Source: Ruminococcus albus 7 = DSM 20455
GTDB taxonomy: Bacteria > Bacillota > Clostridia > Oscillospirales > Ruminococcaceae
Direction of reading: 5' to 3'
Assembly: GCF_000179635.2 (NCBI RefSeq)
Contig: NC_014833.1
Coordinates: 840,001 to 872,000, forward strand
DNA length: 32,000 nucleotides
Made by a program: the position numbers and the translations under genes. Below, in pieces: positions 1,879 through 31,688 of the stretch (positions are counted from its first letter, which is position 1; each line of letters starts with the position of its first letter). The notes beneath the pieces were generated by a model, which saw only the letters and a program-made list of their open reading frames with translations, was not told the DNA's origin and did not search any database.

Positions 1879-2324
1879 ATATATTTTAATTTTTCCGGTA
1901 ACGTAATTATTTCAATGCTATCACTATCAGAAAATGCATTGGCACATATAGCAGTAACATTGATCTCGGTACCATCATAACATTTTATCTGACTAGGAAC
2001 CTCGACCTCTGTTTCAGAACCATAGTACTTTATAATGCCGATAGTACCGTCTTCCAGCATAGTATACTCATAATCGCCAAAAGTAAGTACTTCCGCACTT
2101 GACGAAATAACTGCATTGTCCACCACTACGTTAGGCAAAATTGCACCGCCGAATACTAATGTCAGCGACAGCAGACCTGCTACTATCTTCTTTTTGTTCA
2201 TTATGTCCTCCTAAATATTGTTATAAAATCAAACGACACCCATCTTTCAACCTATACGACTAAATGTGTCGTTTGATGGCAATTGTCTGTCCTTTCGACA
2301 TTATGTCAATTGACAGTTTTCACC

Positions 2325-11911: not shown

Positions 11912-12132
11912 ACCTGTTACCTCCTTGTCTAATCGTCTCCAATGAACTCCATGGATCAATTTGGATTATTCAATTTACTTCATGGTGTTCCTTGGAGTTT
12001 ATTATACTTTATTAGACTTCGGTGGGGTAGGTGCTGGGGGTTATACGCTTACGTTTTCTCTATAAAAATCTTTCGTAAGAGTAAAATATTATGCGCCTTT
12101 CCCTCTAGAGGCAAAAATGGTATAATAGAGTC

Positions 12133-12571
12133 CAACGGCAGAGTTTCCGCAGATATATCTGCCGGAAGAGATATTTGAAGTCCGTTTTTCTCAATGCGGA
12201 TATTTTCGTTTGAGCAAGGAACTGATACAGGAACGATGGTCGGAGAATTCTCGATATACTGTTCGCGGACTTTTCTTAAGCGGTTGTAATACGTGTTAGG
12301 CTTGATCCCATTTTCTGCGCACCATTCTCTGACCGTCAGTCCGCTCGCCTGCTGCGCTTCGATCTGTGCAGACCATTCCTGCAGCTGCATTTCTTTTTTG
12401 ATTGTTGTGATGGATGTTGTTTTGTCCATACCTGTTACCTTCTTGTCTAATCGACTCCAATGAACTCCATGGATCAATTTGGATTATTCGATTTACTTCA
12501 TGGTGTTCCTTGGAGTTTATTATACTTTATTAGACATTGGTGAGCTAGGTGCGGAGGGGTTTGATGCTTAC
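12133..12571 (-). mobile_element. Truncated left end of a second, related IS66-family element (inverted repeat plus 5' part of tnpA only)
   Basis: The terminal sequence GTAAGCATCAAACCCC (reverse complement ends at 12571) is related to the IS66 inverted repeat. The tnpA' frame (start about 12429) closely parallels 11594-11911, with several substitutions, up to ...ISLPADISAETL. Homology then stops near 12133. Confidence 0.7.
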
Positions 12572-12607
12572 GGAATTACTTCAAAACTATAACTCATAAT
12601 ATAAAGC

Positions 12608-17325: not shown

Positions 17326-17480
17326 ATCTATCGGACATAACAGCGTAATGCTTGTGATGTGAAATGTCCATCCCAATTATAATATGGCTATGACTGTTTC
17401 AGGTATATATGTCGTTTACTGTAAGTTACAGCCGTATCAGATTTAAGTTCTTTTATTTTCAGAAGGAGGGTCAAGAGATA

Positions 17481-20400
17481 ATGCACAAGAAAATGAAACG
17501 TATCGTTGCAGGGCTTGTGGCAATTACCGGTGCTTTATCGGCAACAGCCGCATCTGCACCTATGAGTGTGTTTGCAAAAAATGAACAGATAATTATTCAG
17601 TCTGACTTCAATGCAGGAATGGGTCTTCCCTGGCGCACATTCGAGAATGCACCGGCACGGCAGGACTTCGATATTTCAGACGGCACTTACAATATAACGA
17701 TACAGAATAACGATGGTCCCGAGTCAAGATGGGATCTTCAGTTCCTTTACAAAAATTTCTATATACAAAAAGGTCATACTTACAAGGTACACTGGAAGGT
17801 CAATTCTTCCAATGAGGGTGAGCTGTATACTAGGATCGGTAATTACGGCGGAACTGTTGAAGTTTGGCACAACAACTGCGGCAATGATGATTTCAATCAG
17901 ACGTGGGAATGCGTAAAGATCGCTAAAGGCGACAACACCTTCGATGCTGAGTTTACAGCTAAAGAAGATATGGATCGTGCTTGCTGGATATTTGATTACG
18001 GCGGACAGGGTCAGTATCAGCCGGTAGATTGCTTCCCCAACGGTACGGTCCTCAAATTCGACGATCTGTCTTTGATCGACACTACTTCCGGGGGCTGTAT
18101 AATCGATTTCATTCCTAACGATTGGGGCATTGTAAGACCCGAAAGCAACGTTCGTCTGAATCAGATCGGTTACTATCCTCAGCTGGAAAAGAGGGCTTCT
18201 TATGTTACCGATGCTGATATGCCACTGACTTTTGAGATACGTGACAGATCGGGCAACGTAAAGTACACAGGCAAGACGAAGGTATTCGGCAGCGATCCTG
18301 ATTCGGGTACAGGTAAGGATACAGTTGTTAATTCGGTCACAAGATACAAGGACTCGGGTGCCAACGTACATATCATTGATTTCTCTGATTTCAGAACTGT
18401 GGGCGAGTACACTATATTCGTTAAGGATACAGTCGGCGTAAGCGGCACTCAGGTGATGGGTTCTAAGAAAGTAAACGATACAAGGCTAAGCGGTGATAAG
18501 CTTTTATGGACAAATCCCGTTACTATGAAAACTTATACGATGAACGAGAGCAGTACATTCAGGATAGACAGACAGATCTATGATGATCAGCTGCTGAGGG
18601 ATTCCATGAACTACTTCTATCAGAACCGCTCAGGAGTCCCGATAAAGTCTGAGTACATCACATCAGGTGATAAGTCCGCACTGTCACACCTTAAATATGG
18701 TCATAACCCCGATATGGCTTATGTACAGAGCAAATGGGTAAAGACTTACGAAGATGACTTCTCTGATGGCGAGAAGGATAAGAAGATCGACGTTACAGGC
18801 GGATGGTACGCTGCAAGCGACCACGGTAAGTACGTTGTCGAAGGCGGTTTCTCCGTATGGACACTTCAGAACGCTTATGAGTTCTCCAAGAGGAGCGGCA
18901 ATACTCGCAAGTGGACTGACGGCACTATAGCTGTCCCCGAAAATAAGGATAATGCTCCCGATATACTGGATGAAGCAAGGGTAGAGCTGGAGTGGATGTT
19001 CAAAATGATAAATGAGGACGGCTTTGTATATCATTCAGTGCAGGACTATAAGTGGGCAGATATTCCGATCAGGTTAGGGCCCATATACTGTACGGACCCC
19101 CCAATGGAGTACACTTATCCTTACCGTATCGTCAGACCTCCTACGTATGCAGCCACATTCAACATGATCGCTTGTGCTGCACAGGCTTCACGTCTGTGGA
19201 AGGGCATAGATGATGACTTCGCAAAAGAGTGTCTGCAAAATGCACAGAACAGCTGGAAGGCTATCATGGCTAAGCAGTCCAATTGGAACGTTACAAGTGG
19301 CTATTACTATGATGATCCTTACTTTGCTCCCAGTGAATCCGGCGGAAACAACTTTTTCGGTGACACCTATGTAGTTGACGATGCTTACTGGGCAGCTTGT
19401 GAGCTTTATGCTACAACAGGGGACTCGGCTTACTATGGCTTCTTAAAAAACTATAAAAATTATAATGATCCGTCAGGTCAGGATAAGGCATTCAGCCTGA
19501 CTTCCTGCCTGAGCGGTGGTGAGAACAACGGTTCGTTCGGTTCCTTCAATTGGGGCAATACTGCGGGTCTGGGTACCCTTTCACTCTACCTGAGCGACAA
19601 GACATCTTCTGCTGACAGGAAGACTATTGTCAATTCTATCAAAAATATTGCTGACCAATATATTATTCAGATGAGTAAAGAAGGTATGGGCATACCTTAC
19701 AAGAGTGCGACTGTCGGGGGCTATATCGGTATCGGTGATGGAGATGTGTACACAGGTTATGAATACGGCTCCAACTCATTCGTTATCAACAACGCTATGG
19801 TCCTTGCATATGCTTATGATACTGATAACAGCAAATATATTTATCGGAACGGTGCTGCCGAAGCACTTGATTACCTCTTCGGACGCAACGGTCTGGGCTT
19901 CTCTTATGTATCAGGCTACGGCGATAAGGCAATGAGATCGCCACACCACAGATACTGGGCACAAAGTATTGATCCGTACTTCCCGGCGGCACCCTCAGGT
20001 GTTCTTGCAGGCGGTCCATGCTCAGATCTGTATCATGATAAATATCTTCGTGGTCTCGGCTATAAAAGAGGCACTTTAGCTGATCAGAAGTGCTATGTTG
20101 ACAGTGCAGAGGCATGGTCTGTAAATGATGTTTCCGGCAGCTGGAATGCTCCTCTGGTCTGGATGTCATCATTCATGAACGATCGTTTCGGCGGTCCGAA
20201 ACCAGTCCCCTATCCTACCAACATTAAGGTCGATTACAGTGAGGAGTATCATCAGGTAAGATTTACCTGGAACAAGGTGGAAAACGCTGACAGATACGGC
20301 ATAGCAGTTTATCTGGCAGGCAAGTGGAGAGTTCAGAAACAGGATATCACAGGCACTACCTACACTTCTCCCAAAAATCTGACTCCCGGCGTAACTTATA

Positions 20401-20483
20401 AGGTAGCGATTGCCGCAAGAGTGAACGGCACATGGGATACTGAAAATGCTATCAAACGTGCTTGTACTGTTACTATAAAGTGA
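17481..20483 (+). CDS. Multidomain glycoside hydrolase family 9 protein (signal peptide, CBM4/9-like module, Ig-like CelD_N module, GH9 domain, conserved C-terminal module)
   Basis: ATG at 17481 follows RBS AGGAGGG. Signal peptide MHKKMKRIVAGLVAITGALSATAASA. GH9 signature 1 SYVSGYGDKAMRSPHHR is intact. GGWYAASDHGKY and YVDSAEAWSVNDVSGSWNA are GH9 motifs with substitutions. C-terminus is YHQVRFTWNKVENADRYGIAVYLAGKWRVQ... Confidence 0.9.
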   Translation: MHKKMKRIVAGLVAITGALSATAASAPMSVFAKNEQIIIQSDFNAGMGLPWRTFENAPARQDFDISDGTYNITIQNNDGPESRWDLQFLYKNFYIQKGHTYKVHWKVNSSNEGELYTRIGNYGGTVEVWHNNCGNDDFNQTWECVKIAKGDNTFDAEFTAKEDMDRACWIFDYGGQGQYQPVDCFPNGTVLKFDDLSLIDTTSGGCIIDFIPNDWGIVRPESNVRLNQIGYYPQLEKRASYVTDADMPLTFEIRDRSGNVKYTGKTKVFGSDPDSGTGKDTVVNSVTRYKDSGANVHIIDFSDFRTVGEYTIFVKDTVGVSGTQVMGSKKVNDTRLSGDKLLWTNPVTMKTYTMNESSTFRIDRQIYDDQLLRDSMNYFYQNRSGVPIKSEYITSGDKSALSHLKYGHNPDMAYVQSKWVKTYEDDFSDGEKDKKIDVTGGWYAASDHGKYVVEGGFSVWTLQNAYEFSKRSGNTRKWTDGTIAVPENKDNAPDILDEARVELEWMFKMINEDGFVYHSVQDYKWADIPIRLGPIYCTDPPMEYTYPYRIVRPPTYAATFNMIACAAQASRLWKGIDDDFAKECLQNAQNSWKAIMAKQSNWNVTSGYYYDDPYFAPSESGGNNFFGDTYVVDDAYWAACELYATTGDSAYYGFLKNYKNYNDPSGQDKAFSLTSCLSGGENNGSFGSFNWGNTAGLGTLSLYLSDKTSSADRKTIVNSIKNIADQYIIQMSKEGMGIPYKSATVGGYIGIGDGDVYTGYEYGSNSFVINNAMVLAYAYDTDNSKYIYRNGAAEALDYLFGRNGLGFSYVSGYGDKAMRSPHHRYWAQSIDPYFPAAPSGVLAGGPCSDLYHDKYLRGLGYKRGTLADQKCYVDSAEAWSVNDVSGSWNAPLVWMSSFMNDRFGGPKPVPYPTNIKVDYSEEYHQVRFTWNKVENADRYGIAVYLAGKWRVQKQDITGTTYTSPKNLTPGVTYKVAIAARVNGTWDTENAIKRACTVTIK

Positions 20484-21483: not shown

Positions 21484-21941
21484 AGTAGATCTCCTTATAT
21501 TATTCCGAATGAAAGAATTAACATCGGCCGCACAGTAAATGCGCCAAGAAACTGCGGCAAGTTCTCACAATATAATAATATTTTATCTGATCCGGACGAA
21601 ATTATCAAGCCTTTTCTGTGTCAGCAACCGCCAGAAAAGAGTTAGATTATTAATATTATTGAGTCCTAAGCAAGTCTTTGGACTATTTTAGACCATTTGA
21701 AGTGGGATCGGTATACAATCGGAAATCACAACAATCACGGTTGGCATCTCAGAGTTATTATATATTTTATCTGTTTAATTATTTTTGTTTTTGCAAATTT
21801 CTTTTCTGCCGATTTTGCGCTGAAATAACACTATACCATAAATTATAAAGTCGATCATGATCGCAAAGTTATACAGATCTCACTTTTTGATTATCATGCT
21901 GTACGATATACGCATGGATCTTTCCTGATGCTATTATTAAA

Positions 21942-21971
21942 CAAGGCATTCACCAAACGATGAATACCTTG
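21942..21971 (-). terminator. Probable terminator of the dockerin-protein gene
   Basis: On the minus strand: CAAGGTATTCA-loop-TGAATGCCTTG (11-bp stem with one G-U pair) followed by TTTAAT. Confidence 0.45.
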
Positions 21972-22011
21972 TAATTTATTCGCTCGCTGAGTATGATTCC
22001 GGTCGTTTGTA

Positions 22012-23169
22012 TCATACTTCAGGAAGAGTATCTATCATTCTCAGAATATATTTTCTGACAGCCACAGCATCTGCATCGGTTATGCCATCGCCACTGCCCG
22101 AACAATCAGCGTTTATTTTTCCCTGCTCAGTCAGCTTATACTTTGAAGGTGCTGACAATGTCTGCTTGATAAGTACGAAATCAGAAATATCCACTTTTCC
22201 GTCGCAGTTTGCATCACCATAAACTGCCTTTGGATTATCCGGAATATTGCTCTCTGTTATGGGAGCCATGCTCGGTTCGGTATCACCCCACCAGTCCCAA
22301 CGGTCAGCGGTACGGTATTTCTCCATATTTCCGCCTGCCGAAGTCCAGGTAAACACATTGTCGTAAAGATGCCCTTCGTTATAATAAAACTGTGCCATCG
22401 AACAGATCTCATCAGCATAGGTCTTGTATGCACCATCGTCCTCAGCCATATAGCACCAGCCTGTATTAAAGCCCTTAAGGCTGTTCCTTATGACCTGATA
22501 GCCGTGCATTCCCTCTTCATTAATACAGATCTCAGCAAAGTGGAGTATCTTTCTGATACCCATGTGATTTGAGATTATACAATCATAGAAATTGGATTCC
22601 GTGAAAGAATACTGAAACATCTCAGGGACGTTGTCCTCGGGCATGAACTTGGGATTGCAGTCTGCAAAAGCAGTAACAGCGGTCTGAAGAGTACCATATG
22701 CATGGGCAGAGTTAACACCCCAGCCGTCTTCATAGGCTGTTTCATGGTCTGAGCCTATCTTGCCTTCACCCAGAGTAGATTCACGGGTACCAAGTCCAAG
22801 AAACAAAGCATACACCTTTTCACGTTCCGGTTGGCCAAGACGAGTGGAGATAAGATCCCAGTGCTCATCTATCTCTTTATAGAGAGCGTACTTTACCTCC
22901 TGCACTGTCATATTATGGTTGATAGCGCGTATCTCAGCCGTAGAAGCGTTTGCAGGAGTATTTCTCTCCCCAAAGCCAAGGGGATTGCCAACTCCTTCCT
23001 TCTGTATATCACGGGAAGTATCGTGCAGAGGGTCGCAGGTATTTCCGGCACAATACCATTCGTCTGCCGAAGCAACGATAGAAGTATCCATATCACCTGC
23101 CGATATCGACATTGATGATACGATCATTGCAGCCGCGGTAATGACACCGAAAAATCGTCTTTTATTCAT
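22012..23169 (-). CDS. Secreted dockerin-bearing protein with a possible lysozyme-like/lytic-transglycosylase-like domain
   Basis: The likely start is ATG at 23169 after RBS GAGGTG, with signal peptide MNKRRFFGVITAAAMIVSSMSISA. The C-terminal type I dockerin duplicate is GDANCDGKVDISDFVLIKQ ... DCSGSGDGITDADAVAVRKYIL. The central motifs TRES, AYGTLQ and GFNTGW resemble SLT motifs ES / GLMQ / AYNxG. Confidence 0.75.
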   Translation of the reverse strand: MNKRRFFGVITAAAMIVSSMSISAGDMDTSIVASADEWYCAGNTCDPLHDTSRDIQKEGVGNPLGFGERNTPANASTAEIRAINHNMTVQEVKYALYKEIDEHWDLISTRLGQPEREKVYALFLGLGTRESTLGEGKIGSDHETAYEDGWGVNSAHAYGTLQTAVTAFADCNPKFMPEDNVPEMFQYSFTESNFYDCIISNHMGIRKILHFAEICINEEGMHGYQVIRNSLKGFNTGWCYMAEDDGAYKTYADEICSMAQFYYNEGHLYDNVFTWTSAGGNMEKYRTADRWDWWGDTEPSMAPITESNIPDNPKAVYGDANCDGKVDISDFVLIKQTLSAPSKYKLTEQGKINADCSGSGDGITDADAVAVRKYILRMIDTLPEV

Positions 23170-23303
23170 AAATAACACCTCATGTTTTGAGTCGATTTAC
23201 TGACACGGACAGACCTCTGTCAAAGTGAAATTGAGGTCTGTCCAGATTACCGTTACAAATTATATCACATTTCCATGTAAATTTCAATATGATATTATAA
23301 AAA

Positions 23304-23445
23304 ATGGCTATCCCCTTAACACACTGCACGCAAAATCACTGCACCAAAGCAGTCGATAGCCTTAAATACGCACTGTTTCCAAGTTTACAGCAGTTGGATC
23401 AGTAGCAGTATTCGGCAACATATAACGCTGTGTGGATCTTTTCGC
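23304..23445 (-). mobile_element. Truncated, diverged third IS1595-family copy (right-end ~140 bp only, inverted orientation)
   Basis: ATGGCTATCCCCTTAACACACTGCACG...CACTGCACCAAAGCAG...AGCAGTATTCGGCAACATATAACGCTGTGTGGATCTTTTCG aligns by eye (mostly matching, with scattered mismatches) to the reverse complement of 10141-10293. Homology ends 11 bp before the xylanase stop codon. Confidence 0.75.
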
Positions 23446-23456: not shown

Positions 23457-24512
23457 TCACTCTACAGTAAAAGTCACAGCGTTTTTGATAGCATTTGCAG
23501 TATCCCATTTGCCATTAACTTTGGCTGCGATAGCTACGTTGTAGGTCTTGCCCGGGGTGAGGTTCTTGGGAGTAGTATATTCTGTATCGGTGATACTCGC
23601 CTCCTGAACTCTCCACTTGCCTGCCAGATAAACAGCTACGCCGTAACTGTCAGCACCATTTACAGCGTCCCAAGTAAATCTCATCTGCTTGTACTGGCTG
23701 TCATATTCCATCTGTATGTTCTTAACGGAATCATCTTTATGATGTCCGCAGTCACAGATGCCTCGTGGATACATATTCATAGAAACTTCAACCTGACCAT
23801 CGCTCTCCCAACCTTCAACGCTGAAAGAAATATCGTACAGGTTCCCCACCTTCATACCCAGGTCCTCCCAAGCCTTGAAGTGTTTGGAAACGCTGATAGT
23901 ACCCTTGGTTCTCGTGTTCTGACGTATGCTTATATACTGTGTGAAATACCTGTCGCCTTCGATGGTATAGGAATTTTTGTTTATAGTATATACCTTGTAC
24001 TCACTTCCGTCAATATTAACGGAACCCTTGTACTGTGCAGAAGCAGACTGCGCAGGTGACCAGTTCTTCCAGTCTTCAATGATGTAGTACTCTACCAGAG
24101 GATTCTGCGCCCAGCCGTAGATACCGATCCTGGCGTTACCGGATGAACCTGCATACCAGATGCAGTCGTAGTCACAGTAGAAATTACCATAGTCCTTGTA
24201 AGTCTTGGGATTATTCAGACCCCAGCGAAGACCACGATTAGTAATGAAGTTTCCTCTCGTGTTGTTAGGACCACACTTCCACTGTGCGCGGAAACCACCG
24301 TCATTTTCGTGCAGTGTCATTGTAGAAGAATTATTGGTATCTGCCTGCCAGATCTCGTGGTGGTAGTCGTTGTACCAGCCGACTTCCTGTGTGTGTGACG
24401 GGCTCGTAGTGAGCGTCTTTGCAGCAGATGCAGTAACTGATGTTATAATAGGTGAAACCATCAGCACACCGGCAACAAGAGCGCCTAAAACACGTTTTGA
24501 AACATTTTTCAT
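23457..24512 (-). CDS. Glycoside hydrolase family 11 endo-1,4-beta-xylanase with conserved C-terminal module
   Basis: Signal peptide MKNVSKRVLGALVAGVLMVSPIITSVTASA after RBS GAGGAG. GH11 hallmarks YGWAQNPLVEYYIIEDW (nucleophile Glu) and SVEGWESDG (acid/base Glu). C-terminus is YKQMRFTWDAVNGADSYGVAVYLAGKWRVQ... Confidence 0.92.
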   Translation of the reverse strand: MKNVSKRVLGALVAGVLMVSPIITSVTASAAKTLTTSPSHTQEVGWYNDYHHEIWQADTNNSSTMTLHENDGGFRAQWKCGPNNTRGNFITNRGLRWGLNNPKTYKDYGNFYCDYDCIWYAGSSGNARIGIYGWAQNPLVEYYIIEDWKNWSPAQSASAQYKGSVNIDGSEYKVYTINKNSYTIEGDRYFTQYISIRQNTRTKGTISVSKHFKAWEDLGMKVGNLYDISFSVEGWESDGQVEVSMNMYPRGICDCGHHKDDSVKNIQMEYDSQYKQMRFTWDAVNGADSYGVAVYLAGKWRVQEASITDTEYTTPKNLTPGKTYNVAIAAKVNGKWDTANAIKNAVTFTVE

Positions 24513-25184: not shown

Positions 25185-25886
25185 TCATCTTGTGATATTA
25201 GCAATAGCGGCGGATATAACATCTTCTACGCCGCAGACTTTATCAATTTTATCCTTGTCGGGAGCATTCCTTAGTTCTGCGATACCTGCTCTCCACAAAA
25301 CCAGAGTATTTACATTCAGTGAATCTATCCGCTGTGACATGGCACTGTTGCGGGTGTACATATCAGATATCATCATAATACCTTGTGATGCTATGTTTGC
25401 CGAGATTACAAGGTCGTTTATTTTTTTATCTGCAAGGATCTGGTAGTATTTCCAGTCGGTATCTTTATCTTTGTTTTTCATATGTTCACTCAATGCGGCT
25501 GATGCTTCATTAAGCTCCTGTATGCAGCACTCCAGCACTTGTTTCATGGTGTCAAGCAGCATATTCTCTTTGTATAGTCCTATGTATATTTCCTGAAAGC
25601 TATCGGATATCCTCTGGGCTTCTTTGTCAGCTTTTTCAGCATTGTCAATGAGTCTTGCGTAGCTTATAGTTCCCACAAATCCCTTGTATTTTGCCAGACC
25701 GTTTATCTTTAGCTGGTCTGAAGCAAGGGTCAGGACATTTATAGCTTTGTCAGGCATCCTATCCTGCTGTATTCTGAATAACATATCTGATGTATCAGCT
25801 ATTCTCTTCTGAACATCTCCTGCATATGAGGGGAGAAGTTCAAAGGTCATCATATCGGGGGTATATTTCTTGGTACTATTCAGCAT
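25185..25886 (-). CDS. Short TelA-like (toxic anion resistance/YaaN-KlaB family-like) helical protein; gene 4 of the operon
   Basis: 233 aa, all-helical in character. ADKKINDLVISANIASQGIMMISDMYTRNSAMSQRIDSLNVNTLVLWRAGIAEL parallels the conserved TelA core (..DKR.HDL..S.Q...Q...I.....N.....KI.S......PLWK.Q..), recalled from memory. Its start overlaps the upstream stop (ATGCTGA). The ORF call is solid; the family call is moderate. Confidence 0.65.
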   Translation of the reverse strand: MLNSTKKYTPDMMTFELLPSYAGDVQKRIADTSDMLFRIQQDRMPDKAINVLTLASDQLKINGLAKYKGFVGTISYARLIDNAEKADKEAQRISDSFQEIYIGLYKENMLLDTMKQVLECCIQELNEASAALSEHMKNKDKDTDWKYYQILADKKINDLVISANIASQGIMMISDMYTRNSAMSQRIDSLNVNTLVLWRAGIAELRNAPDKDKIDKVCGVEDVISAAIANITR

Positions 25887-26770
25887 GACCTGTTCACCTT
25901 AGCAAGCTTGATATACTTATCAAGATCTATCTTCTTAAAAAAATTATAACTGTCACAATTTATATCCTGACCAAATATACCCATCTGAACTGGTGATGAA
26001 ATGACTATATCAGTATCGGGTATATTGAAGATATCACGGAACTGGTCTTCCGTAAGAGGCTGACCATAATAGGGATACCAGTTCTTTTCGTGGAATGACA
26101 TGGACTCCATCACCCTCAGCACGACACGTCGTAAAAACATAACCGAGCACATGGGGTAGAAGCATTTTTTCATATTAATAGGTTCCGACGGGCTTTTCAG
26201 CCTTATCTCGGAGTTGAACACCTCGTCATTGCTGTAGCATGAGCTGAACACTTTAAGGTCAACACCTATGCCGTATTCTTCAAGCAGTTTTATCAGACTG
26301 AGAGTCAGCGCGCCGCGGTTGGTGACTGCCTGCTCTAAGGTGTGAATTGAATATGCCAGATTGAACCATATAGTAACGAATTTTTTCTCTCTTGCTCTTG
26401 TGAGCCTGTACATTGTCTTCGGAGTACCTGCCACGTACGCGGGAATATTTGGGTGAGAGCCTGCCATTGCCTTTTCCTGCCTGCGTCTGTAAGTTCTTAT
26501 CGGCATAGTCTTTTCAAATTCCTTCAGCATTTCCAGTGTAATGTCATAATTACCCGTATATCCGCCGATAAGATAATCTACAGCATTATCAAAGGTATCC
26601 TCGGGAAAATCCGGACGTCTGATGATACTGTGCTGTTTGAGAAATATTTTGTCGTTTACTTTAGGTTTGCTGAGTATATACATCTGCATATCACTCAGAC
26701 TGTTGAACGCCGCATTGTATACAGTCATTTTTTTGTATTGGTATACTTTGAGGTTCATAAATTCTCTCAT
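25880..26770 (-). CDS. Unknown protein, partner immediately downstream of the AAA_5 NTPase; gene 3 of the operon
   Basis: 296 aa. ATGA start/stop overlap with the NTPase gene. No motif I can assign. The strand-helix pattern KKFVTIWFNLAYSIH...RGALTLSLIKLLEEYGIGVDLKVF could be a degenerate vWA/Rossmann-like core without a DxSxS MIDAS. Confidence 0.75.
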   Translation of the reverse strand: MREFMNLKVYQYKKMTVYNAAFNSLSDMQMYILSKPKVNDKIFLKQHSIIRRPDFPEDTFDNAVDYLIGGYTGNYDITLEMLKEFEKTMPIRTYRRRQEKAMAGSHPNIPAYVAGTPKTMYRLTRAREKKFVTIWFNLAYSIHTLEQAVTNRGALTLSLIKLLEEYGIGVDLKVFSSCYSNDEVFNSEIRLKSPSEPINMKKCFYPMCSVMFLRRVVLRVMESMSFHEKNWYPYYGQPLTEDQFRDIFNIPDTDIVISSPVQMGIFGQDINCDSYNFFKKIDLDKYIKLAKVNRSC

Positions 26771-28911
26771 CGTCTTGTTTCTCCGTTTCGTATAGCGTTA
26801 ACTATATTGCTGAACACGCTGAATATCCCGACACTTTTTCTTTCACGACCGTCGTAGAACTTTGCCATTTCTCTCTGTAGAAATGCAAGATATTCGCTGT
26901 CCTTGGTCTCAACGAATTCATATCTGACGATCGCCTCGACATCGTAACTCTGGTGATCAAGGTACTTCTTTATGCTGGTTGCATCACGGGTGGTGAATAT
27001 ACCCGGAGCTGCTGTCTGATTTTCTTTGCTCCATGCAGTGGTGGCATTGCGGAAGACCTCAGCGAATTCAAACCACTGAGGATAATTACAAAGTATGTTC
27101 TCTTCAAGTCTGTTATCGTAATCAACGTATATCGCTGTGAATCTCTGCATGAGAGATTCCTCTATCTTCTCACGGGTGCTGTAATTCCTGTCAGCGCCGT
27201 CACCTGCGGTGTTGCCTGCTGCTATGATACGGAAATTCGGGTGGCGCATTACTCGCTCGCCGTTAGGGAAGCAGTAGCTTGCATTTTTGGAATTGGACAT
27301 AAAGCTGTTGAGTTTTACTGCTGCCCTGATATTGCCATTATCAAATTCATCGCAGAAAACTATACCGCCGTATTTGTATGCTCGGTAGAATGCAGGATAG
27401 TTGTATCCGCCGTCCGCTGTCTGGAATCCCAGCAGGTCATATTCCTCGTTTATGTAGCCGATATCCAGATATTCCAGTCCCAACAGCTTGGCTATCTGCC
27501 CTACAAGAAAAGTTTTTCCGCAGCCGGATGGGCCTATCATATATGGGTTTGAATCTTCGATTACAGCGGTGATTATATCATCGAAATGCTCATGATAAAG
27601 AGTATTGTTTTCATCGATATACTTCTGCTTTTTCTCCATGAGTTTTGCGAACCTGTCTTTGAAGGGATAGGATTCATCAAAGAAGAAATTAGGTGTCATA
27701 TCAGCAGGCTCGGTGCATCTCTGGGCATTTATCTGAACTATGGTTGGGTGCACTCCTGCCGCCACCTGTATTGGTGCGGCAGCTGCTTCAGTTTTTTCGG
27801 CGTCGAAATTTTTGCTGAACTCATCAACGCGTATTATTCTGTTCACCAGATCACTGCTCTTGTTTACCTCTGATATGATATTTTTCAGTTCGCCGTTGTT
27901 AAGCATTGACGAGGCTCTGTCAATAGCTTTGTTTGCCTCCGTGTTTATGCGGAAAAGCTCTGCGGCTGTGTTGTCCTTTATGCCTGAAGCCAACAGTTTA
28001 AGCTCTCTTATCTTACTGTCCGCAGAATCTATGACATCTCTGATCAGCTTATCCTTTTCAAACACTATACTGTCATGTTCTTCGTTCAGAAAAGCATCAA
28101 AAGATTCTTTCAACTTGAATTCCGCATTCTTTGCTTCTCTTGTAAGTTTTTCCGTCTCACTAAGTGTGAGATCCTTGATAGTCTTTTCATTCTGCTCAAC
28201 AAATCTTTTGAAGCTGTCGAGGCGATCTTCTGTAAGGTCGAGAGTGTGCTTTGCGTTCTCAAGGTTTTCCTTGCTGTTTTTCAGCAACATCTCAGACCTT
28301 GCTATCCTTTCTTCACTGATATCGTATATTCCGCAAGCCATTCGCGCATAGCTGAGAAGTTTTTCACATTCGATCTCTTTGTCATGAGCACTGCATATCT
28401 TGATAGCACCGCTTATAAGCGATGAGGCAAAGCTTTTCTCATTGTTGTGGTACTGTCTGAGCTCACAGCTGAAAGTATTGATATAATAGATGTTTTTTTC
28501 TGCTGTTGGTATATCTGCAATGGTGCACATGGTATCGATGTAGATCTGCTTGTCACTGAAACATAAATACATCTCTTTAGTGAACAATCCTGAATGATAG
28601 ATGCCGTCCTTTTCAAATATTTTCAAAAATACTGCATTTGCAAACCTGAAATCTTTGGTTGCTTTTCCGAGAGGAAGTACGGTGCGGTAGATATCCTCTG
28701 CATCTTTCATTATTTCTATAGGCGATTTTTCACTTCGGGAAGTTATAATGCTGTTGACCAGCTTTGAAAGTGTTTCTTCCGAGCCGAATCTGTTTTTATC
28801 GGGCTCCCGCTTTATCTCACTGAGGTATATACTCAGCGGAACATATTTATCGTCCTTTTTTAACGCTGCCTTGACCGCCTGCAATATTGCGTCTATCCTG
28901 TTTTTTGTCAT
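26767..28911 (-). CDS. Coiled-coil-containing AAA_5 (MoxR/McrB-like) NTPase; gene 2 of the operon
   Basis: 714 aa. Walker A GPSGCGKT (27511-27534), Walker B IVFCDEFD (27340-27363), sensor region IIAAGNTAGDGAD (27190-27228) and LMQRF. The N-terminal ~190-aa domain is unassigned. A long E/K/L-rich heptad-like segment covers about aa 195-345 (27879-28329). Confidence 0.85.
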   Translation of the reverse strand: MTKNRIDAILQAVKAALKKDDKYVPLSIYLSEIKREPDKNRFGSEETLSKLVNSIITSRSEKSPIEIMKDAEDIYRTVLPLGKATKDFRFANAVFLKIFEKDGIYHSGLFTKEMYLCFSDKQIYIDTMCTIADIPTAEKNIYYINTFSCELRQYHNNEKSFASSLISGAIKICSAHDKEIECEKLLSYARMACGIYDISEERIARSEMLLKNSKENLENAKHTLDLTEDRLDSFKRFVEQNEKTIKDLTLSETEKLTREAKNAEFKLKESFDAFLNEEHDSIVFEKDKLIRDVIDSADSKIRELKLLASGIKDNTAAELFRINTEANKAIDRASSMLNNGELKNIISEVNKSSDLVNRIIRVDEFSKNFDAEKTEAAAAPIQVAAGVHPTIVQINAQRCTEPADMTPNFFFDESYPFKDRFAKLMEKKQKYIDENNTLYHEHFDDIITAVIEDSNPYMIGPSGCGKTFLVGQIAKLLGLEYLDIGYINEEYDLLGFQTADGGYNYPAFYRAYKYGGIVFCDEFDNGNIRAAVKLNSFMSNSKNASYCFPNGERVMRHPNFRIIAAGNTAGDGADRNYSTREKIEESLMQRFTAIYVDYDNRLEENILCNYPQWFEFAEVFRNATTAWSKENQTAAPGIFTTRDATSIKKYLDHQSYDVEAIVRYEFVETKDSEYLAFLQREMAKFYDGRERKSVGIFSVFSNIVNAIRNGETRR

Positions 28912-28921
28912 ATCCTTCCAC

Positions 28922-30037
28922 CTATTCGTTATCTTTATGTAAGTATCTGTCTATTATTTCAACACCGGGTATACCAAAAAGATCATCCTTGATTTTTTTG
29001 ATCTCTCCATCGTTTATATGTCGGTAATAATATCCTTCCTGTGAGCTGTCCAGGCTCTTTATGATTCTTGTGCAGCACAGTTTTGATTGTACAAGCAGCC
29101 TGGTTTTTTCTCTGAATATTTCATGAACTACCGATATCTCACTTTTTCTGCCGTTGCAGAGTTCTTCCTCATATATCTGAGTTATCATTTCGCTGTCATT
29201 GCAGTAAATTGTTTCTTTATCCGTCATGAAGATCTTTTCGCCCCAAGGCAATAAAGCTCCCTGAGCATAATTGCCGCCGATCTCGCATATCAGCTTCACT
29301 TCCTCAGACATTTCAGTTTTTTCAAGCTCGGGAGAGATCTCCTCACAGAATATCACTTGTCCGTCTTCGATGATCATACATCTGAGGCTGTTCTGTAATA
29401 GATCGTATATATATTCATGTCGAAGCTCCCTATCGGTAAAACTTTGGGTTATCACTTCGGTTTTTGAATGGGCATACCTGAGCGTGATCTGTGCTGTGTG
29501 AGTGCCATTGAATAGATTTCCCAGAGTATAAACATATTCGTTACCCTGTGAAGTTATGCTGCATGGCAGTTGTTTATTTATTCCGTTGACAGTACAGGAT
29601 ATCATATATCTGTTTCTGTTCCCTTTGATGTTTGAAAGCCTAAATGTTGCTTCTGCATCACTGTATATCTTTGAAAGAAAGTATTCGATGAAATTTTTGG
29701 AAAACATACCTGTGCCGAACGTCAGTACCTTTTCTTCATGCTTACTGCACTCAGCAATAAAGTTGAAACGCGTGGGGAAACTAAGTTTTTTACGTTTCTC
29801 AATTATCTCGGAAGTATAGTCGTCGAAACAGCTTTCGGGGTAATTGAGATACAATCGGTCTGCTGTTTTTGCCAGCATGGAGAAGTAGTCGTCATATTCA
29901 CATAGATTGATATACTTATTTCCGTTATATATCACTATCAGTGCCTGTGTGTTATCAGGCATGGTGTAATATCTTATCAGATCTGCTTTTTCTATCTGAG
30001 ATATTTCCAACTGAGTTCTGCTCATGAATGGTGTCAT
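28922..30037 (-). CDS. Unknown protein; gene 1 of the operon
   Basis: 371 aa. The ATG is 10 nt after RBS AGGAG (30048-30052). There is a 10-bp gap containing GGTGGAAGGA before the next gene. No signal peptide, TM segment or motif I recognise. Confidence 0.75.
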   Translation of the reverse strand: MTPFMSRTQLEISQIEKADLIRYYTMPDNTQALIVIYNGNKYINLCEYDDYFSMLAKTADRLYLNYPESCFDDYTSEIIEKRKKLSFPTRFNFIAECSKHEEKVLTFGTGMFSKNFIEYFLSKIYSDAEATFRLSNIKGNRNRYMISCTVNGINKQLPCSITSQGNEYVYTLGNLFNGTHTAQITLRYAHSKTEVITQSFTDRELRHEYIYDLLQNSLRCMIIEDGQVIFCEEISPELEKTEMSEEVKLICEIGGNYAQGALLPWGEKIFMTDKETIYCNDSEMITQIYEEELCNGRKSEISVVHEIFREKTRLLVQSKLCCTRIIKSLDSSQEGYYYRHINDGEIKKIKDDLFGIPGVEIIDRYLHKDNE

Positions 30038-30072
30038 AGTTTACGCACTCCTGTACGCGTTAGAATTATAAT

Positions 30073-30105
30073 ATGGTTATCTTTTAGCACACCACATGAT
30101 CTTAC
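30073..30105 (+). repeat. Solo IS1595-like terminal inverted-repeat remnant
   Basis: ATGGTTATCTTTTAGCACACCACATGATCTTAC versus the IS left end ATGGTTATCCCTTTAACACACCACAGATAATTTAC. Most positions match, with one small gap. The flanking sequence is unrelated to the IS interior. Confidence 0.4.
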
Positions 30106-30189
30106 ATTATTATAAGCGTTTATAAAGGATCTGTTATCTATCAGGTAAATTATGTGGTAACTTAGGTGCGCATGACTGATATCCATTAA

Positions 30190-30362
30190 ATATTATATCA
30201 TATGTATCAATAAAAGTAAAGCAACTGCAACGTGCTTGAATGTTAGCTTTAGTTGCGAAGCCTCACACGACTAAAGTCGCGTGCTTCCAATAGTGTCCTA
30301 TAGGACACGCCCACTTTAGGAGGGCGGACTACGTTTCTACCATACAGCCTGAACTCAGAAAA
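30190..30362 (-). ncRNA. Candidate omega-RNA (reRNA) scaffold/right end of the TnpB element (boundaries approximate)
   Basis: It lies immediately 3' of the tnpB stop. Dense hairpins on the minus strand: CGCCC-n10-GGGCG, GTGTCC-TATA-GGACAC, GAAGC[CACGCGAC-TTTA-GTCGTGTG]AGGCTTC and GCAAC-n21-GTTGC. The complementary ACTTTAGT / ACTAAAG segments suggest a pseudoknot. Confidence 0.45.
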
Positions 30363-31688
30363 TTATGCTGTTGGAGCAATAAATTCCGCATTCAGGTTAA
30401 CTAAGGTAGAGAACGTGCAGGTGCTTCTCTTACTGCATTGAGGGACTTTAGCCTCAATGAGCAACCTTGAATTCTCATCCAAGGATTTTAATATTTCACG
30501 TATGAAGTATCTTGCCCCTATATTATACGAAGCAGATAGATCACAGTTGTAGGTCTTGCCATTTTGAAATTTGCATAGCTCATAGGTATTGAAACCACCG
30601 AATTTACCACGAAGTACAAAACCACTGCCATCGTAGGCAAGGCGTGACGTATTCCATGCACAGATATGGCTTACTCTCATACCTAGTCTGTGAGCTTTAT
30701 TCGTTACAATAGACTGAACTTCCTGACTGCGCCACAGCTTGAGTTTCTGCTTTTTAGAACCGCGGACCTTACCGTTCTTGTCTAAATGCTCAAATACAAT
30801 AACATCTGCATTATAAAGAACAGCTATATCTACGATGCAGGCAGCAGTTTTAGTGGCAATGTCGTGATTGATTCCTTTGGCTTTTGCCCAAAGCCTTGGT
30901 GTTTTATAGTTACCATGCTGCTGAGCTTTTTTTATACGGTTAACACAATGCATAAGATGGTCTGTTTCTTTGGTAAGCTTATAAAAATGCCTTCCAAGAA
31001 TAGTGCCATCTGAACGCATTACGGAAATCGTAGCTGCGGTGTTTATTCCAAGATCTACAGCAACAATGGTCTGTTCATACACAGATATATCTGCAAGTTT
31101 GACCTTTTCCTCAAACGGAAAGTCCAAAAACCACTCCTTGCCTCGTTTTTGAAGTGTTGGAGCGCATTGCTTGCGAAAATTGCAATGTCTGTATATATAA
31201 TCCATATCAGACTTTTTAAAGTTTATCGTTATCCAGTCCCATGTATTACGGATGTAGACTTTGATCTGGGCAGTATAATCACCGGTCTGATTGTACATTC
31301 CTGTACGATACATTGACGGAAATGTATATCCTGCTTTTGGATACGATGGTTCTCTGCCTACAGGATCTTTTATCCAATTGGCGAGATTGCTTTTGTAAGA
31401 TGATACCTTGCCTATAGCTTCGTTAATAGCACCACGGCGCAGATAGCTTGGCATCTTATAGAATTTTGTATCAAAATCATAAATTGGATCGGGATTATCT
31501 TTTGTAGAATGGATCAGTGTTTCAATATATGTGAGTTTACTCACCCCTTTGAATGAAACAATGTTATCCCATTTATCAAGACATACTTTGATAAGGTAAT
31601 CTACAGCATGTCTGTATACGATAACGGTATCTTTAAAGATGTTGTTGTAATGCTTGATCTTAACGCTATAAGTCGTATATATCTGCAT
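30363..31688 (-). CDS. tnpB: IS200/IS605-family TnpB-like RNA-guided endonuclease (OrfB), with no TnpA nearby
   Basis: 441 aa. The RuvC triad context is IVAVDLGIN (D), DVIVFEHLD (E) and YNCDLSASYNIGARY (D, matching the hADxNAAxNI motif). RBS GGAGGGAG upstream. The usual CxxC...CxxC zinc finger between E and the last D appears degenerate. Confidence 0.85.
   Translation of the reverse strand: MQIYTTYSVKIKHYNNIFKDTVIVYRHAVDYLIKVCLDKWDNIVSFKGVSKLTYIETLIHSTKDNPDPIYDFDTKFYKMPSYLRRGAINEAIGKVSSYKSNLANWIKDPVGREPSYPKAGYTFPSMYRTGMYNQTGDYTAQIKVYIRNTWDWITINFKKSDMDYIYRHCNFRKQCAPTLQKRGKEWFLDFPFEEKVKLADISVYEQTIVAVDLGINTAATISVMRSDGTILGRHFYKLTKETDHLMHCVNRIKKAQQHGNYKTPRLWAKAKGINHDIATKTAACIVDIAVLYNADVIVFEHLDKNGKVRGSKKQKLKLWRSQEVQSIVTNKAHRLGMRVSHICAWNTSRLAYDGSGFVLRGKFGGFNTYELCKFQNGKTYNCDLSASYNIGARYFIREILKSLDENSRLLIEAKVPQCSKRSTCTFSTLVNLNAEFIAPTA

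What the first reader, a model, noticed from the sequence alone, without database searches (positions are those of the whole stretch)
22012..23169. Dockerin-bearing protein whose catalytic region carries lytic-transglycosylase-like motifs
The C-terminal duplicated calcium-binding segments are a clear type I dockerin, implying incorporation into a cellulosome-like complex. The preceding domain is not an obvious glycoside hydrolase of plant polysaccharides. Instead it shows TRES...AYGTLQ...GFNTGW, spaced like the ES / GLMQ / AYNxG motifs of SLT/goose-lysozyme-type enzymes. A peptidoglycan- or chitin-type lytic activity docked onto a scaffoldin would be unusual.
Basis: partly seen in the sequence, partly recalled or inferred. 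Interest (0 to 1): 0.4.

Follow-up and report, generated by a model that had tools for sequence, protein, structure and literature searches.

The report
Ruminococcal GH124 cellulase with a dockerin
This gene encodes an ordinary, already catalogued rumen Ruminococcus enzyme, a family GH124 cellulase carrying a dockerin, whose lysozyme-like look is a known peculiarity of that cellulase family and not a sign of cell-wall-lytic activity.

Summary
The ORF is real: 22012..23169, minus strand, 385 aa. It reads signal peptide, catalytic domain, short linker, C-terminal dockerin.

- **Dockerin:** confirmed. Pfam scores it above threshold. It is 55% identical to the R. flavefaciens group 1a dockerin of PDB 5M2O.
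- **Catalytic domain:** a full-length match to Pfam Cel124_C (E 1.2e-86). It is about 41% identical to the only characterised GH124, the C. thermocellum inverting endo-beta-1,4-glucanase CtCel124. A confident AlphaFold model superposes on that structure (TM 0.90).
all three exist, and each contains GH124-wide invariant residues. The E of TRES aligns with the CtCel124 catalytic acid.
- **Resemblance to lytic transglycosylases:** only a faint fold-level echo. There is no Pfam SLT hit, and the profile comparison gives 1.8% probability. After GH124 itself, the next structural matches are sub-significant lysozyme-like folds.
- **Substrate:** other GH124 members are fused to cellulose-binding modules CBM2 and CBM3, which points to cellulose.
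- **Prior knowledge:** dockerin-bearing GH124s in R. flavefaciens and R. albus were tabulated in 2014. A 99% identical protein is already deposited.

The finding is ordinary. Activity of the Ruminococcus clade and its cohesin partner remain untested.

The parts
22012..23169 (-). Complete CDS, 385 aa: signal peptide, GH124 catalytic domain, linker, C-terminal dockerin
   Evidence: ORF list and sequence. Pfam Cel124_C plus Dockerin_1. 99% identical to a 385-aa NCBI 'dockerin type I repeat-containing protein [Ruminococcus sp.]'.
23065..23169 (-). Predicted signal peptide region, aa 1 to about 24-35. It has a KRR n-region and a hydrophobic FFGVITAAAMIVSSMSI core. Candidate cleavage sites follow SISA or VASA.
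   Evidence: Read directly from the sequence. Low pLDDT at aa 1-36 in the full-length model. No signal-peptide predictor was available, so the cleavage site is inferred.
22957..23064 (-). N-terminal extension of the catalytic domain specific to the Ruminococcus clade, aa 36-71. Conserved motif HDTSRDxQxEGVGNPxxxGERNTP. It lies upstream of the part aligned with CtCel124.
   Evidence: H49, D50, R53, G59-P63 and R69-P72 are invariant in 35 Ruminococcus homologues. The phmmer match to 2xqo and 6g1g starts only at aa 72. This region is modelled with pLDDT 83-95.
22285..22956 (-). GH124 (Cel124) catalytic domain. The Pfam core is aa 87-263, the structure-aligned part aa 72-277, and the family-conserved Trp-rich tail runs to about aa 295.
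   Evidence: PF21908 at E 1.2e-86, covering profile positions 1-172 of 172. 2xqo_A and 6g1g_A at E about 1e-46. AF2 model pLDDT 91.1. Foldseek to 6g1g_A gives E 2.8e-17, TM 0.90, rmsd 1.4 A.
22780..22782 (-). Codon of Glu130 in the TRES motif, the predicted catalytic general acid
   Evidence: It aligns with E76 of chain 6g1g_A. That residue is Glu203 in UniProt numbering and Glu96 in Bras et al., the catalytic acid (PMC6096483). It is invariant in both alignments. It sits just after model helix aa 116-129.
22717..22770 (-). Segment aa 134-151 (GEGKIGSDHETAYEDGWG), just after the catalytic Glu. It carries the clade-specific 9+2-residue insertion relative to CtCel124.
   Evidence: Gaps in the phmmer alignment to 6g1g and 2xqo. 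G139, D141, E143, T144 and A145 are invariant within the Ruminococcus clade. E143 and T144 are also invariant family-wide. Position relative to the substrate cleft was not determined.
22225..22284 (-). Short linker, aa 296-315 (DTEPSMAPITESNIPDNPKA)
   Evidence: Variable in length and composition among homologues. pLDDT below 50 at aa 306-313.
22024..22224 (-). C-terminal dockerin of the ruminococcal group 1 kind, aa 316-382, with two Ca-binding loops (aa 319-330 and 353-367)
   Evidence: Pfam Dockerin_1 at 29.3 bits against a cut-off of 22.9. 5m2o_B at E 1.4e-18. Foldseek to 5m2o_B gives TM 0.84, rmsd 1.1 A, 55% identity. Six of eight Doc1a cohesin-contact residues are conserved, including the critical Ile39 and Val43 (alignment read against PMC5429695).
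23259..23287 (-). Promoter-like site TTGAAA-17-TATAAT with extended TG
   Evidence: Best site in the scanned region at 11/12. This is a consensus match only. The number of sites found equals the shuffle expectation.
23207..23243 (-). 11-bp perfect inverted repeat (GGACAGACCTC ... GAGGTCTGTCC) in the 5' leader
   Evidence: Sequence. The RNA fold of the leader gives -25.7 kcal/mol and z = -2.07. Function unknown.
23176..23181 (-). Ribosome-binding site GAGGTG, with six bases between it and the ATG
   Evidence: Sequence.

Best explanation
The gene encodes a secreted GH124 glycoside hydrolase of a rumen Ruminococcus.

**Export (inferred).** The N-terminal signal peptide directs export.

**Catalytic domain (shown by homology and modelling).** The all-alpha domain is built around a central helix that ends at Glu130.

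**Chemistry (inferred from CtCel124).** The domain most likely cleaves internal beta-1,4-glucosidic bonds of cellulose and related beta-glucans with inversion of configuration. Glu130 would act as the general acid. No classical catalytic base is expected; the attacking water is thought to be activated through a water chain.

**Dockerin (fold shown).** The C-terminal group-1-type dockerin has a two-Ca2+ fold.

**Tethering (inferred).** The dockerin would attach the enzyme non-covalently to a cohesin on a scaffoldin or cell-surface protein. The enzyme would then act next to other fibre-degrading enzymes.

**The lytic-transglycosylase look.** The ES / GxLQ / NTG pattern is the signature of the GH124 active site. 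GH124 sits on a lysozyme-like scaffold, and the pattern does not indicate peptidoglycan or chitin cleavage.
For: - **Family and fold:** Pfam Cel124_C at E 1.2e-86 over the whole profile. PDB CtCel124 at E about 1e-46. AF2 model pLDDT 91, pTM 0.91, superposing on 6g1g with TM 0.90 and rmsd 1.4 A.
- **Catalytic Glu:** it aligns with Glu203/Glu96 (PMC6096483) and is invariant.
- **Metal site:** window E102, H103 and H202 match CtCel124 Glu175, His176 and His264. E99 stands in place of Gln172 (alignment).
- **Founding member:** it is an inverting endo-beta-1,4-glucanase (PMC6096483; PMC5651568; PMC6091422).
- **Domain fusions:** other GH124 domains are fused to the cellulose-binding modules CBM2 (P0167, P0170) and CBM3 (P0179). 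No peptidoglycan-binding module was seen among the 17 homologues scanned.
- **Genomic neighbours:** a GH9 cellulase and a GH11 xylanase.
- **Dockerin:**. The contact residues I328, S329, V332, Q336, K343 and L376 match Doc1a Ile39, Ser40, Val43, Gln47, Lys54 and Leu87.
- **Prior catalogue:** dockerin-bearing GH124 is tabulated for R. flavefaciens FD-1, 17 and 007c and for R. albus (PMC4081043 Table 3).
- **Distribution:** 141 related loci were confirmed. The 80 listed all come from Ruminococcus, Oscillospiraceae or Clostridiales genomes and MAGs.
Against: - None of the papers I opened reports a biochemically characterised Ruminococcus GH124.
- Identity to the single characterised enzyme is only about 41%.
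- The Ruminococcus clade carries a 9+2-residue insertion directly after the catalytic Glu and a conserved 35-residue N-terminal extension. Either could reshape the substrate cleft.
- CtCel124 itself showed low activity in a comparative survey (PMC5651568).
- No cohesin gene lies in the window.
- The closest named genomes are labelled R. albus, and the three R. albus genomes analysed in PMC4081043 carry no cohesin or only one. Cellulosome incorporation is therefore not established.
Confidence: 0.85

Rival explanations
1. One reading: the domain is a lytic transglycosylase or goose-lysozyme-type enzyme acting on peptidoglycan or chitin, docked on a scaffoldin.
For: - The motif order ES / GxLQ / NTG parallels ES / GLMQ / AYNxG.
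- After GH124 structures, the next Foldseek matches are Slt (5o1j, E 0.098, prob 0.51), MltE (E 0.87), the phi6 lysin and GH19 chitinases.
- hhalign places GFNTGW opposite AYNAG.
Against: - No Pfam SLT hit at E <= 1.
- hhalign probability is 1.8% over only 46 columns.
- The Foldseek matches have TM 0.25-0.37 normalised to the query, and rmsd of 8-12 A.
- Spacing differs: 32 and 105 residues against 18 and 71-83.
- The domain is an unambiguous GH124, whose characterised member is a cellulase.
- Relatives carry CBM2 and CBM3, not LysM, SH3 or PG-binding domains.
Confidence: 0.03
2. It is a true GH124, but the Ruminococcus clade has a shifted specificity. It might prefer mixed-linkage beta-glucan, xyloglucan or another beta-1,4-linked plant polymer over cellulose, because of the loop inserted next to the catalytic Glu and the extra N-terminal segment.
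For: - The clade-specific insertion (aa 134-151 segment) and N-terminal extension both contain invariant residues.
- Catalytic domains are only about 35-42% identical to the CtCel124-like clade.
- None of the papers I opened characterises a ruminococcal member.
Against: - Residues invariant across both clades include all three active-site motifs.
- The model superposes on CtCel124 with rmsd of 1.4-2.5 A.
- Context and family fusions point to cellulose.
Confidence: 0.12
3. The dockerin does not recruit the enzyme into a multi-enzyme cellulosome. It binds a lone cohesin or another cell-surface partner, so the enzyme is cell-anchored or free. This is the situation described for R. albus, and for CtCel124, which is targeted to the cell surface.
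For: - The closest named genomes are labelled R. albus (AR67 and KH2T6, 96-97% identity).
- The three R. albus genomes analysed carry 0-1 cohesin yet dozens of dockerins (PMC4081043).
- Both neighbouring GH genes lack dockerins and end in a different shared C-terminal module.
- RtGH124A itself is not part of the cellulosome and is targeted to the cell surface instead (PMC6096483).
Against: - The dockerin is 55% identical to R. flavefaciens Doc1a.
- It keeps the residues critical for ScaA/ScaB cohesin binding.
- All group 1 dockerins tested bound CohScaA1 and CohScaB2 (PMC5429695).
Confidence: 0.35

Closest known systems
CtCel124 / RtGH124A (Cthe_0435) of Clostridium (Acetivibrio) thermocellum; PDB 2XQO, 6G1G, 6G1I. 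Founding and only characterised member of CAZy GH124.
   Same: - Same catalytic domain (Pfam PF21908).
- About 41% identity; the model superposes at TM 0.90.
- The catalytic Glu is aligned, as are metal-site residues His176, His264 and Glu175.
- Both are dockerin-borne secreted enzymes of fibre-degrading Clostridia.
   Different: - The dockerin is C-terminal here and N-terminal in CtCel124.
- The dockerin is of the ruminococcal group 1 kind. The C. thermocellum dockerin binds OlpC, as the PDB 4DH2 title shows.
- The window protein has a conserved extension of about 35 aa at the N-terminus.
- It has a 9+2-aa insertion after the catalytic Glu.
- Gln172 of the metal site is Glu here.
- It comes from a mesophilic rumen organism.
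Dockerin-bearing GH124 proteins of R. flavefaciens FD-1, 17 and 007c and of R. albus (Dassa et al. 2014, PMC4081043 Table 3), plus the 99% identical NCBI protein 'dockerin type I repeat-containing protein [Ruminococcus sp.]' (P0001)
   Same: - Same architecture: signal peptide, GH124, C-terminal dockerin.
- 96-97% identity to loci in 'R. albus' AR67 and KH2T6 and in Ruminococcus sp. YE71.
- One copy per genome is reported for these strains.
   Different: - FD-1-type orthologues are longer (about 520-630 aa), with an unannotated spacer of about 190-290 aa between GH124 and the dockerin.
- Flanking genes are not syntenic with the nearest relatives.
Family 1 lytic transglycosylases, CAZy GH23 (Pfam SLT PF01464): E. 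coli Slt70, MltC, MltD, MltE
   Same: - All-alpha lysozyme-like scaffold.
- A single catalytic Glu in an E-S dipeptide at a helix end, followed by a GxxQ motif and then an aromatic-N-x-G motif.
- No obvious second carboxylate.
   Different: - No significant sequence or profile similarity.
- Only sub-significant structural matches.
- Different motif spacing.
- GH124 hydrolyses beta-1,4-glucan with inversion. Lytic transglycosylases cleave MurNAc-GlcNAc bonds by intramolecular transglycosylation; this last point is from general knowledge and was not tested here.
R. flavefaciens FD-1 group 1a dockerin Doc1a in complex with CohScaB3 (PDB 5M2O; PMC5429695)
   Same: - 55% identity, TM 0.84, rmsd 1.1 A.
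- Contact residues Ile39, Ser40, Val43, Gln47, Lys54 and Leu87 are conserved.
- The two helices show no internal symmetry, as expected for single-binding-mode dockerins.
   Different: - Met46 is Lys and Gln83 is Arg here. The Q83A mutation had no effect on affinity in that study.
- The partner cohesin in the source organism is unknown.

Membership tests
CAZy GH124 (Pfam PF21908 Cel124_C) | Sequence match to the family profile above the curated threshold, over the full domain length | tested here: met
   289.6 bits against a cut-off of 27, E 1.2e-86, profile positions 1-172 of 172. phmmer to 2xqo_A and 6g1g_A gives E about 1e-46.
CAZy GH124 (Pfam PF21908 Cel124_C) | All-alpha fold with helices surrounding a central helix that carries the catalytic acid | tested here: met
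   AF2 model pLDDT 91.1. Foldseek to 6g1g_A gives E 2.8e-17, TM 0.90, rmsd 1.4 A. Model helix aa 116-129 ends immediately before Glu130. The fold description comes from PMC6096483.
CAZy GH124 (Pfam PF21908 Cel124_C) | Catalytic general acid Glu (Glu96 in Bras numbering, Glu203 in UniProt numbering) conserved | tested here: met
   Glu130 aligns with chain residue E76, which is Glu203. It is invariant in 35 and in 57 homologues.
CAZy GH124 (Pfam PF21908 Cel124_C) | Transition-metal site (Asp141, Gln172, Glu175, His176, His264 in RtGH124) | tested here: inconclusive
   E102, H103 and H202 align with Glu175, His176 and His264, and are invariant within the Ruminococcus clade. Gln172 is replaced by invariant Glu99. 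Asp141 lies N-terminal of the aligned region; an acidic residue (Glu68) sits at the expected offset. Metal binding was not testable.
CAZy GH124 (Pfam PF21908 Cel124_C) | Inverting endo-beta-1,4-glucanase activity | not testable with these tools
   Inferred from CtCel124 only (PMC6096483, PMC5651568). Supported indirectly by CBM2 and CBM3 fusions in relatives.
Dockerin (Pfam PF00404), ruminococcal group 1 | Duplicated Ca-binding loop plus helix segments matching the dockerin profile above threshold | tested here: met
   29.3 bits against a cut-off of 22.9. Loops are DANCDGKVDISD and NADCSGSGDGITDAD. The modelled module superposes on 5m2o_B with TM 0.84 and rmsd 1.1 A.
Dockerin (Pfam PF00404), ruminococcal group 1 | Group 1 cohesin-contact residues (Doc1a Ile39, Ser40, Val43, Met46, Gln47, Lys54, Gln83, Leu87) | tested here: met
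   I328, S329, V332, Q336, K343 and L376 are conserved. Met46 is K335 and Gln83 is R372. Ile39 and Val43 are the residues whose double mutation abolishes binding (alignment; PMC5429695).
Dockerin (Pfam PF00404), ruminococcal group 1 | A cognate cohesin (ScaA or ScaB type) in the same genome, with demonstrable binding | not testable with these tools
   No cohesin domain turned up among the window ORFs scanned. Only 32 kb of the genome is available. The nearest named genomes are labelled R. albus, whose analysed strains are cohesin-poor.
GH23 family 1 lytic transglycosylases (Pfam SLT PF01464) | Match to the SLT domain profile | tested here: not met
   No SLT hit at E <= 1 in Pfam. hhalign of the GH124 alignment against MltE alone gives Prob 0.1%. 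Against an alignment of five E. coli SLT domains it gives Prob 1.8% over 46 columns.
GH23 family 1 lytic transglycosylases (Pfam SLT PF01464) | ES, GLMQ and AYNxG motifs at the characteristic spacing | tested here: not met
   ES is present, and so are GTLQ and FNTG. Offsets are 32 and 105 residues, against 18 and 71-83 in Slt70, MltC and MltD. The Tyr of AYNxG is Phe here.
GH23 family 1 lytic transglycosylases (Pfam SLT PF01464) | Lysozyme-like fold superposable on lytic transglycosylase catalytic domains | tested here: inconclusive
   Foldseek ranks 4-10 are all lysozyme-like enzymes but sub-significant: Slt 5o1j E 0.098, MltE E 0.87, with query-normalised TM of 0.25-0.37.

The most novel reading that the evidence does not exclude
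The Ruminococcus GH124 clade carries an invariant acidic-residue-containing loop inserted right after the catalytic Glu and a conserved N-terminal extension, and I found no biochemical characterisation of it. It might not be a plain endo-cellulase. It could have a distinct specificity or mechanism, for example a different beta-glycan substrate or a candidate base supplied by the inserted loop. It could even retain lysozyme- or transglycosylase-like chemistry on a non-cellulosic polymer.
Probability: 0.07. Interest if true: 0.45.

Novelty: already known. Interest (0 to 1): 0.1.

Why it matters
Very little is at stake. The gene adds one more orthologue to a small but already catalogued cellulase family. 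That family has only 51 clusters at 50% identity among 1.84 billion representative proteins.

The useful lesson concerns annotation. GH124 active-site motifs mimic those of lytic transglycosylases because the family sits on a lysozyme-like scaffold, so motif reading alone misleads.

The one open point of modest interest is that I found no biochemical study of a ruminococcal GH124, a clade with its own insertion next to the catalytic Glu. A second open point is that the partner of its dockerin in R. albus-like genomes is unknown.

Tried and rejected
- **Lytic transglycosylase or lysozyme membership.** Rejected after three tests. The Pfam scan at E <= 1 gave no SLT hit. hhalign against MltE alone gave Prob 0.1%. 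hhalign against an alignment of five E. coli K-12 SLT domains, built from NC_000913, gave Prob 1.8%.
- **First AlphaFold run.** The Ruminococcus-only alignment gave a poor model (pLDDT 69.8, low at aa 132-183). A second run added the CtCel124-like clade. Those sequences came from a search seeded with the CtCel124 sequence copied from the alignment. The second model was confident.
- **Plasmid origin.** tblastn of the protein and of the neighbours' C-terminal module against PLSDB gave no match.
- **Bras et al. 2011 (PNAS).** I tried to read this primary GH124 paper by DOI and by a guessed PMC id. It is not held. Statements about its content rest on Urresti et al. 2018 (PMC6096483) and other citing papers. 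The published GH124-GH23 structural comparison is my recollection only.
- **Neighbours' shared C-terminal module.** NCBIfam gave no name for it. Whether it is CBM37 stays open.
- **Synteny with the closest genomes.** Only the gene and about 250 bp of upstream sequence are shared.
- **Pseudoenzyme or non-catalytic reading.** Rejected because the catalytic Glu and all family-invariant residues are kept.
Full report
**1. What is at the coordinates**

The interval 22012-23169 is exactly one minus-strand CDS of 385 codons.
- The ATG at 23169 follows a GAGGTG ribosome-binding site with six bases between them.
- Further upstream lies the best sigma-70-like site of the region, TTGAAA-17-TGnTATAAT at 23287-23259, scoring 11/12.
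- The ORF lister's alternative GTG at 23178 is not needed. A 99% identical 385-aa NCBI protein, 'dockerin type I repeat-containing protein [Ruminococcus sp.]' (P0001), starts at the equivalent Met.

The protein begins with a typical signal sequence: a KRR n-region followed by a hydrophobic core. The cleavage site is inferred, because no predictor was available.

**2.

The three motifs are present: TRES at aa 128-131, AYGTLQ at 157-162 and GFNTGW at 233-238. The two calcium-binding segments are DANCDGKVDISD and NADCSGSGDGITDAD.

The dockerin is confirmed by three results.
- Pfam Dockerin_1 scores 29.3 bits against a cut-off of 22.9.
- The R. flavefaciens FD-1 group 1a dockerin of PDB 5M2O matches at E 1.4e-18.
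- The modelled module superposes on it with TM 0.84, rmsd 1.1 A and 55% identity.

**3. What the catalytic region is**

Pfam places aa 87-263 in PF21908, the 'Cel124 C-terminal catalytic domain'. The match has E 1.2e-86 and covers profile positions 1-172 of 172.

The PDB sequence search finds the C. thermocellum GH124 cellulase (2XQO, 6G1G, 6G1I) at about 1e-46 over aa 72-277.

A first AlphaFold run used only close Ruminococcus homologues and was poor in the middle of the domain (pLDDT 69.8). I then collected the CtCel124-like clade and built a 57-sequence alignment of both clades (A2). The second model of aa 36-312 has pLDDT 91.1 and pTM 0.91. Foldseek against the PDB puts the three GH124 entries first, with E from 6e-18 to 2e-16, target-normalised TM 0.89-0.90, rmsd 1.4-2.5 A and 40-42% identity.

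Urresti et al. (PMC6096483) describe RtGH124 as seven helices surrounding an eighth, which carries the catalytic acid Glu203 (Glu96 in the numbering of Bras et al. 2011).
- The chain-to-UniProt offset is +127. I verified it on His264, which falls in the peptide GISVHMGIR.
- With that offset, Glu203 is chain residue E76, which aligns with window Glu130, the E of TRES.
- In the model, a helix spans aa 116-129 and ends right at this Glu.
- Metal-site residues Glu175, His176 and His264 align with E102, H103 and H202. Gln172 is replaced by Glu99.

They are the GH124 active-site signature.

**4. How much lytic transglycosylase is in it**

*Sequence.* There is nothing significant.
- No SLT hit appears in Pfam at E <= 1.
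- I extracted Slt70, MltC, MltD, MltE and MltF from E. coli K-12 and aligned their SLT domains (A3).
- Profile-profile comparison with the GH124 alignment gives Prob 1.8% over 46 columns.
NFYDxxISxHMGIR...GFNTGW lies opposite DPExNIxxGxxYL...AYNAG.

*Spacing.* It is only loosely similar. Glu to Gln is 32 residues and Glu to Asn is 105 here. Slt70, MltC and MltD give 18 and 71-83.

*Structure.* After the GH124 entries, Foldseek ranks 4-10 are all enzymes with lysozyme-like folds:
- P. aeruginosa Slt 5O1J (E 0.098, prob 0.51);
- the GH134 mannanase 5JUG;
- MltE 4HJY and 4HJV;
- the phage phi6 lysin 4DQ5 (two chains);
- a GH19 chitinase.

Noise begins after rank 10 with nuclear-receptor ligand-binding domains. 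The poorer first model gave the same kind of tail: an Slt, an ostrich g-type lysozyme, GH19 and GH134.

So the resemblance is a faint but consistent fold-level echo. From memory, the original CtCel124 structure paper (Bras et al. 2011, PNAS) already noted the similarity to GH23 lytic transglycosylases. I could not open that paper, so this remains a recollection.

**5. Function**

The founding member is an inverting endo-beta-1,4-glucanase (PMC6096483; PMC5651568 Table). It has no identified catalytic base, and a water-wire mechanism has been suggested (PMC6091422).

Independent support for cellulose as the family's target comes from domain fusions. An exhaustive phmmer search of 1.84 billion representative proteins found only 51 clusters. 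Among the divergent members I scanned:
- two carry CBM2;
- one carries CBM3;
- two carry type IX secretion tails;
- none carries LysM, SH3 or PG-binding modules.

The gene sits between a GH9 cellulase (17409-20483) and a GH11 xylanase (23457-24512).

I therefore assign a secreted GH124 endoglucanase with Glu130 as general acid. Family membership and fold are shown. Substrate and stereochemistry are inferred.

Two caveats apply.
- None of the papers I opened characterises a ruminococcal GH124.
- This clade differs from CtCel124 by a 9+2-residue insertion directly after the catalytic Glu. The insertion lies in segment aa 134-151, where G139, D141, E143, T144 and A145 are invariant within the clade. 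The clade also has a conserved 35-residue N-terminal extension, HDTSRDxQxEGVGNP...GERNTP.

**6. The dockerin and what it implies**

I read the alignment against the structure-function data for Doc1a (PMC5429695).
- The helix-1 contacts Ile39, Ser40, Val43, Gln47 and Lys54 are conserved as I328, S329, V332, Q336 and K343.
- The helix-3 contact Leu87 is conserved as L376.
- Met46 is Lys here and Gln83 is Arg. The Q83A mutation had no effect on affinity in that study.

In R. flavefaciens FD-1, all tested group 1 dockerins bind the ScaA and ScaB1-4 cohesins in a single binding mode. If the source organism has such scaffoldins, the enzyme is a regular cellulosome component.

That condition is not verified.
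- The best genome matches are labelled R. albus AR67 (97%), Ruminococcus sp. YE71 (96%) and R. albus KH2T6 (96%). R. flavefaciens FD-1 is at 86%.
- The three R. albus genomes analysed in PMC4081043 have zero or one cohesin despite dozens of dockerins.
- RtGH124A itself is targeted to the cell surface, not to the cellulosome.

**7. Novelty**

Dassa et al. 2014 (PMC4081043 Table 3) already list one dockerin-bearing GH124 in each of R. flavefaciens FD-1, 17 and 007c, and in R. albus strains.

The genome scan confirmed 141 related loci. The 80 listed all come from Ruminococcus, Oscillospiraceae or Clostridiales genomes and MAGs, many from rumen or other gut samples. The large protein database holds 408 clusters at 90% identity. 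The protein itself is deposited at 99% identity.

The finding is a known kind of protein, correctly spotted but over-interpreted.

**8. Context noted in passing**

- Only the gene plus about 250 bp upstream (21898-23429) is shared at the DNA level with the closest genomes.
- That upstream stretch contains a remnant of about 145 bp (23297-23444) of the end of an IS1595-family element. The window holds two full copies of that element, at 856-1880 and 9271-10295.
- A C-terminal Fn3-like module of about 88 aa recurs on the GH9, the GH11, a BspA-type LRR protein and an orphan ORF, with a fifth copy as DNA similarity at the window start.

Noticed in passing
window 20209-20483 (+), 23457-23695 (-), 2325-~2600 (-), 3804-4076 (-), 1-246: A C-terminal Fn3-like module of about 88 aa (consensus ...RFTW..V.GAD.YGVAVYLAGKW.VQ...TPKNLTPG.TY.VAIAA.VNGKWDT...) ends the GH9 cellulase, the GH11 xylanase and a BspA-type LRR protein, and forms an orphan 90-aa ORF. 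A further copy at the window start shows up only as DNA similarity. The GH9 and GH11 copies are 66% identical. Pfam fn3 scores only below threshold. NCBIfam gives no name and there is no plasmid match. It occupies the position where R. flavefaciens enzymes carry dockerins, so it may be the R. albus-type CBM37 or a similar surface or substrate anchor. That was not verified.
   Followed up: partly
window 856-1880 and 9271-10295; remnant at 23297-23444; L001 5711-5866; L005 681-864: There are two 96.6% identical copies of an IS1595-family element of about 1 kb, with transposase ORFs at 970-1845 and 9385-10260. About 145 bp of its end recurs at 82-87% identity, inverted, immediately upstream of the GH124 promoter. 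The same remnant lies upstream of the GH124 gene in 'R. albus' AR67 and KH2T6. Flanking genes are otherwise not syntenic, which suggests the GH124 cassette has been relocated.
   Followed up: partly
window 8609-11151 (-): An IS66-family transposase gene appears split in two. The N-terminal part is at 10231-11151 and the C-terminal part at 8609-9142. The second IS1595 copy lies between them, which suggests a nested insertion.
   Followed up: no
window 23207-23243 (-): An 11-bp perfect inverted repeat (GGACAGACCTC-15 nt-GAGGTCTGTCC) lies in the 5' leader of the GH124 mRNA, between the promoter-like site and the RBS. The leader folds at -25.7 kcal/mol with z = -2.07. Function unknown.
   Followed up: partly
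window 25185-31688 (-): A co-directional gene cluster encodes a TelA-like protein, a DUF7192 protein, a 714-aa AAA_5 (dynein-related/MoxR-like) ATPase and a 371-aa protein with no Pfam match. After a gap of about 325 bp comes a 441-aa OrfB_IS605/TnpB-like protein. It might be a stress or defence module. It was not examined.
   Followed up: no
window 11621-12053 and 12139-12572: A 434-bp direct repeat at 93% identity, of unknown nature.
   Followed up: no
relatives: P0004 (521 aa); P0002, P0012, P0016 (521-628 aa); L017 (R. flavefaciens FD-1): Architectural variants of ruminococcal GH124 exist. P0004 matches the catalytic domain in two stretches, the better at its residues 258-516, so it may be a tandem GH124. 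FD-1-type orthologues carry an unannotated region of about 190-290 aa between GH124 and the dockerin.
   Followed up: no
relatives P0167, P0170, P0179, P0197, P0202: Outside the Clostridia clades, GH124 domains are fused to CBM2 with Fn3 or Ig domains, to CBM3, or to type IX secretion C-terminal sorting domains. The whole family comprises only 51 clusters at 50% identity among 1.84 billion representatives.
   Followed up: partly
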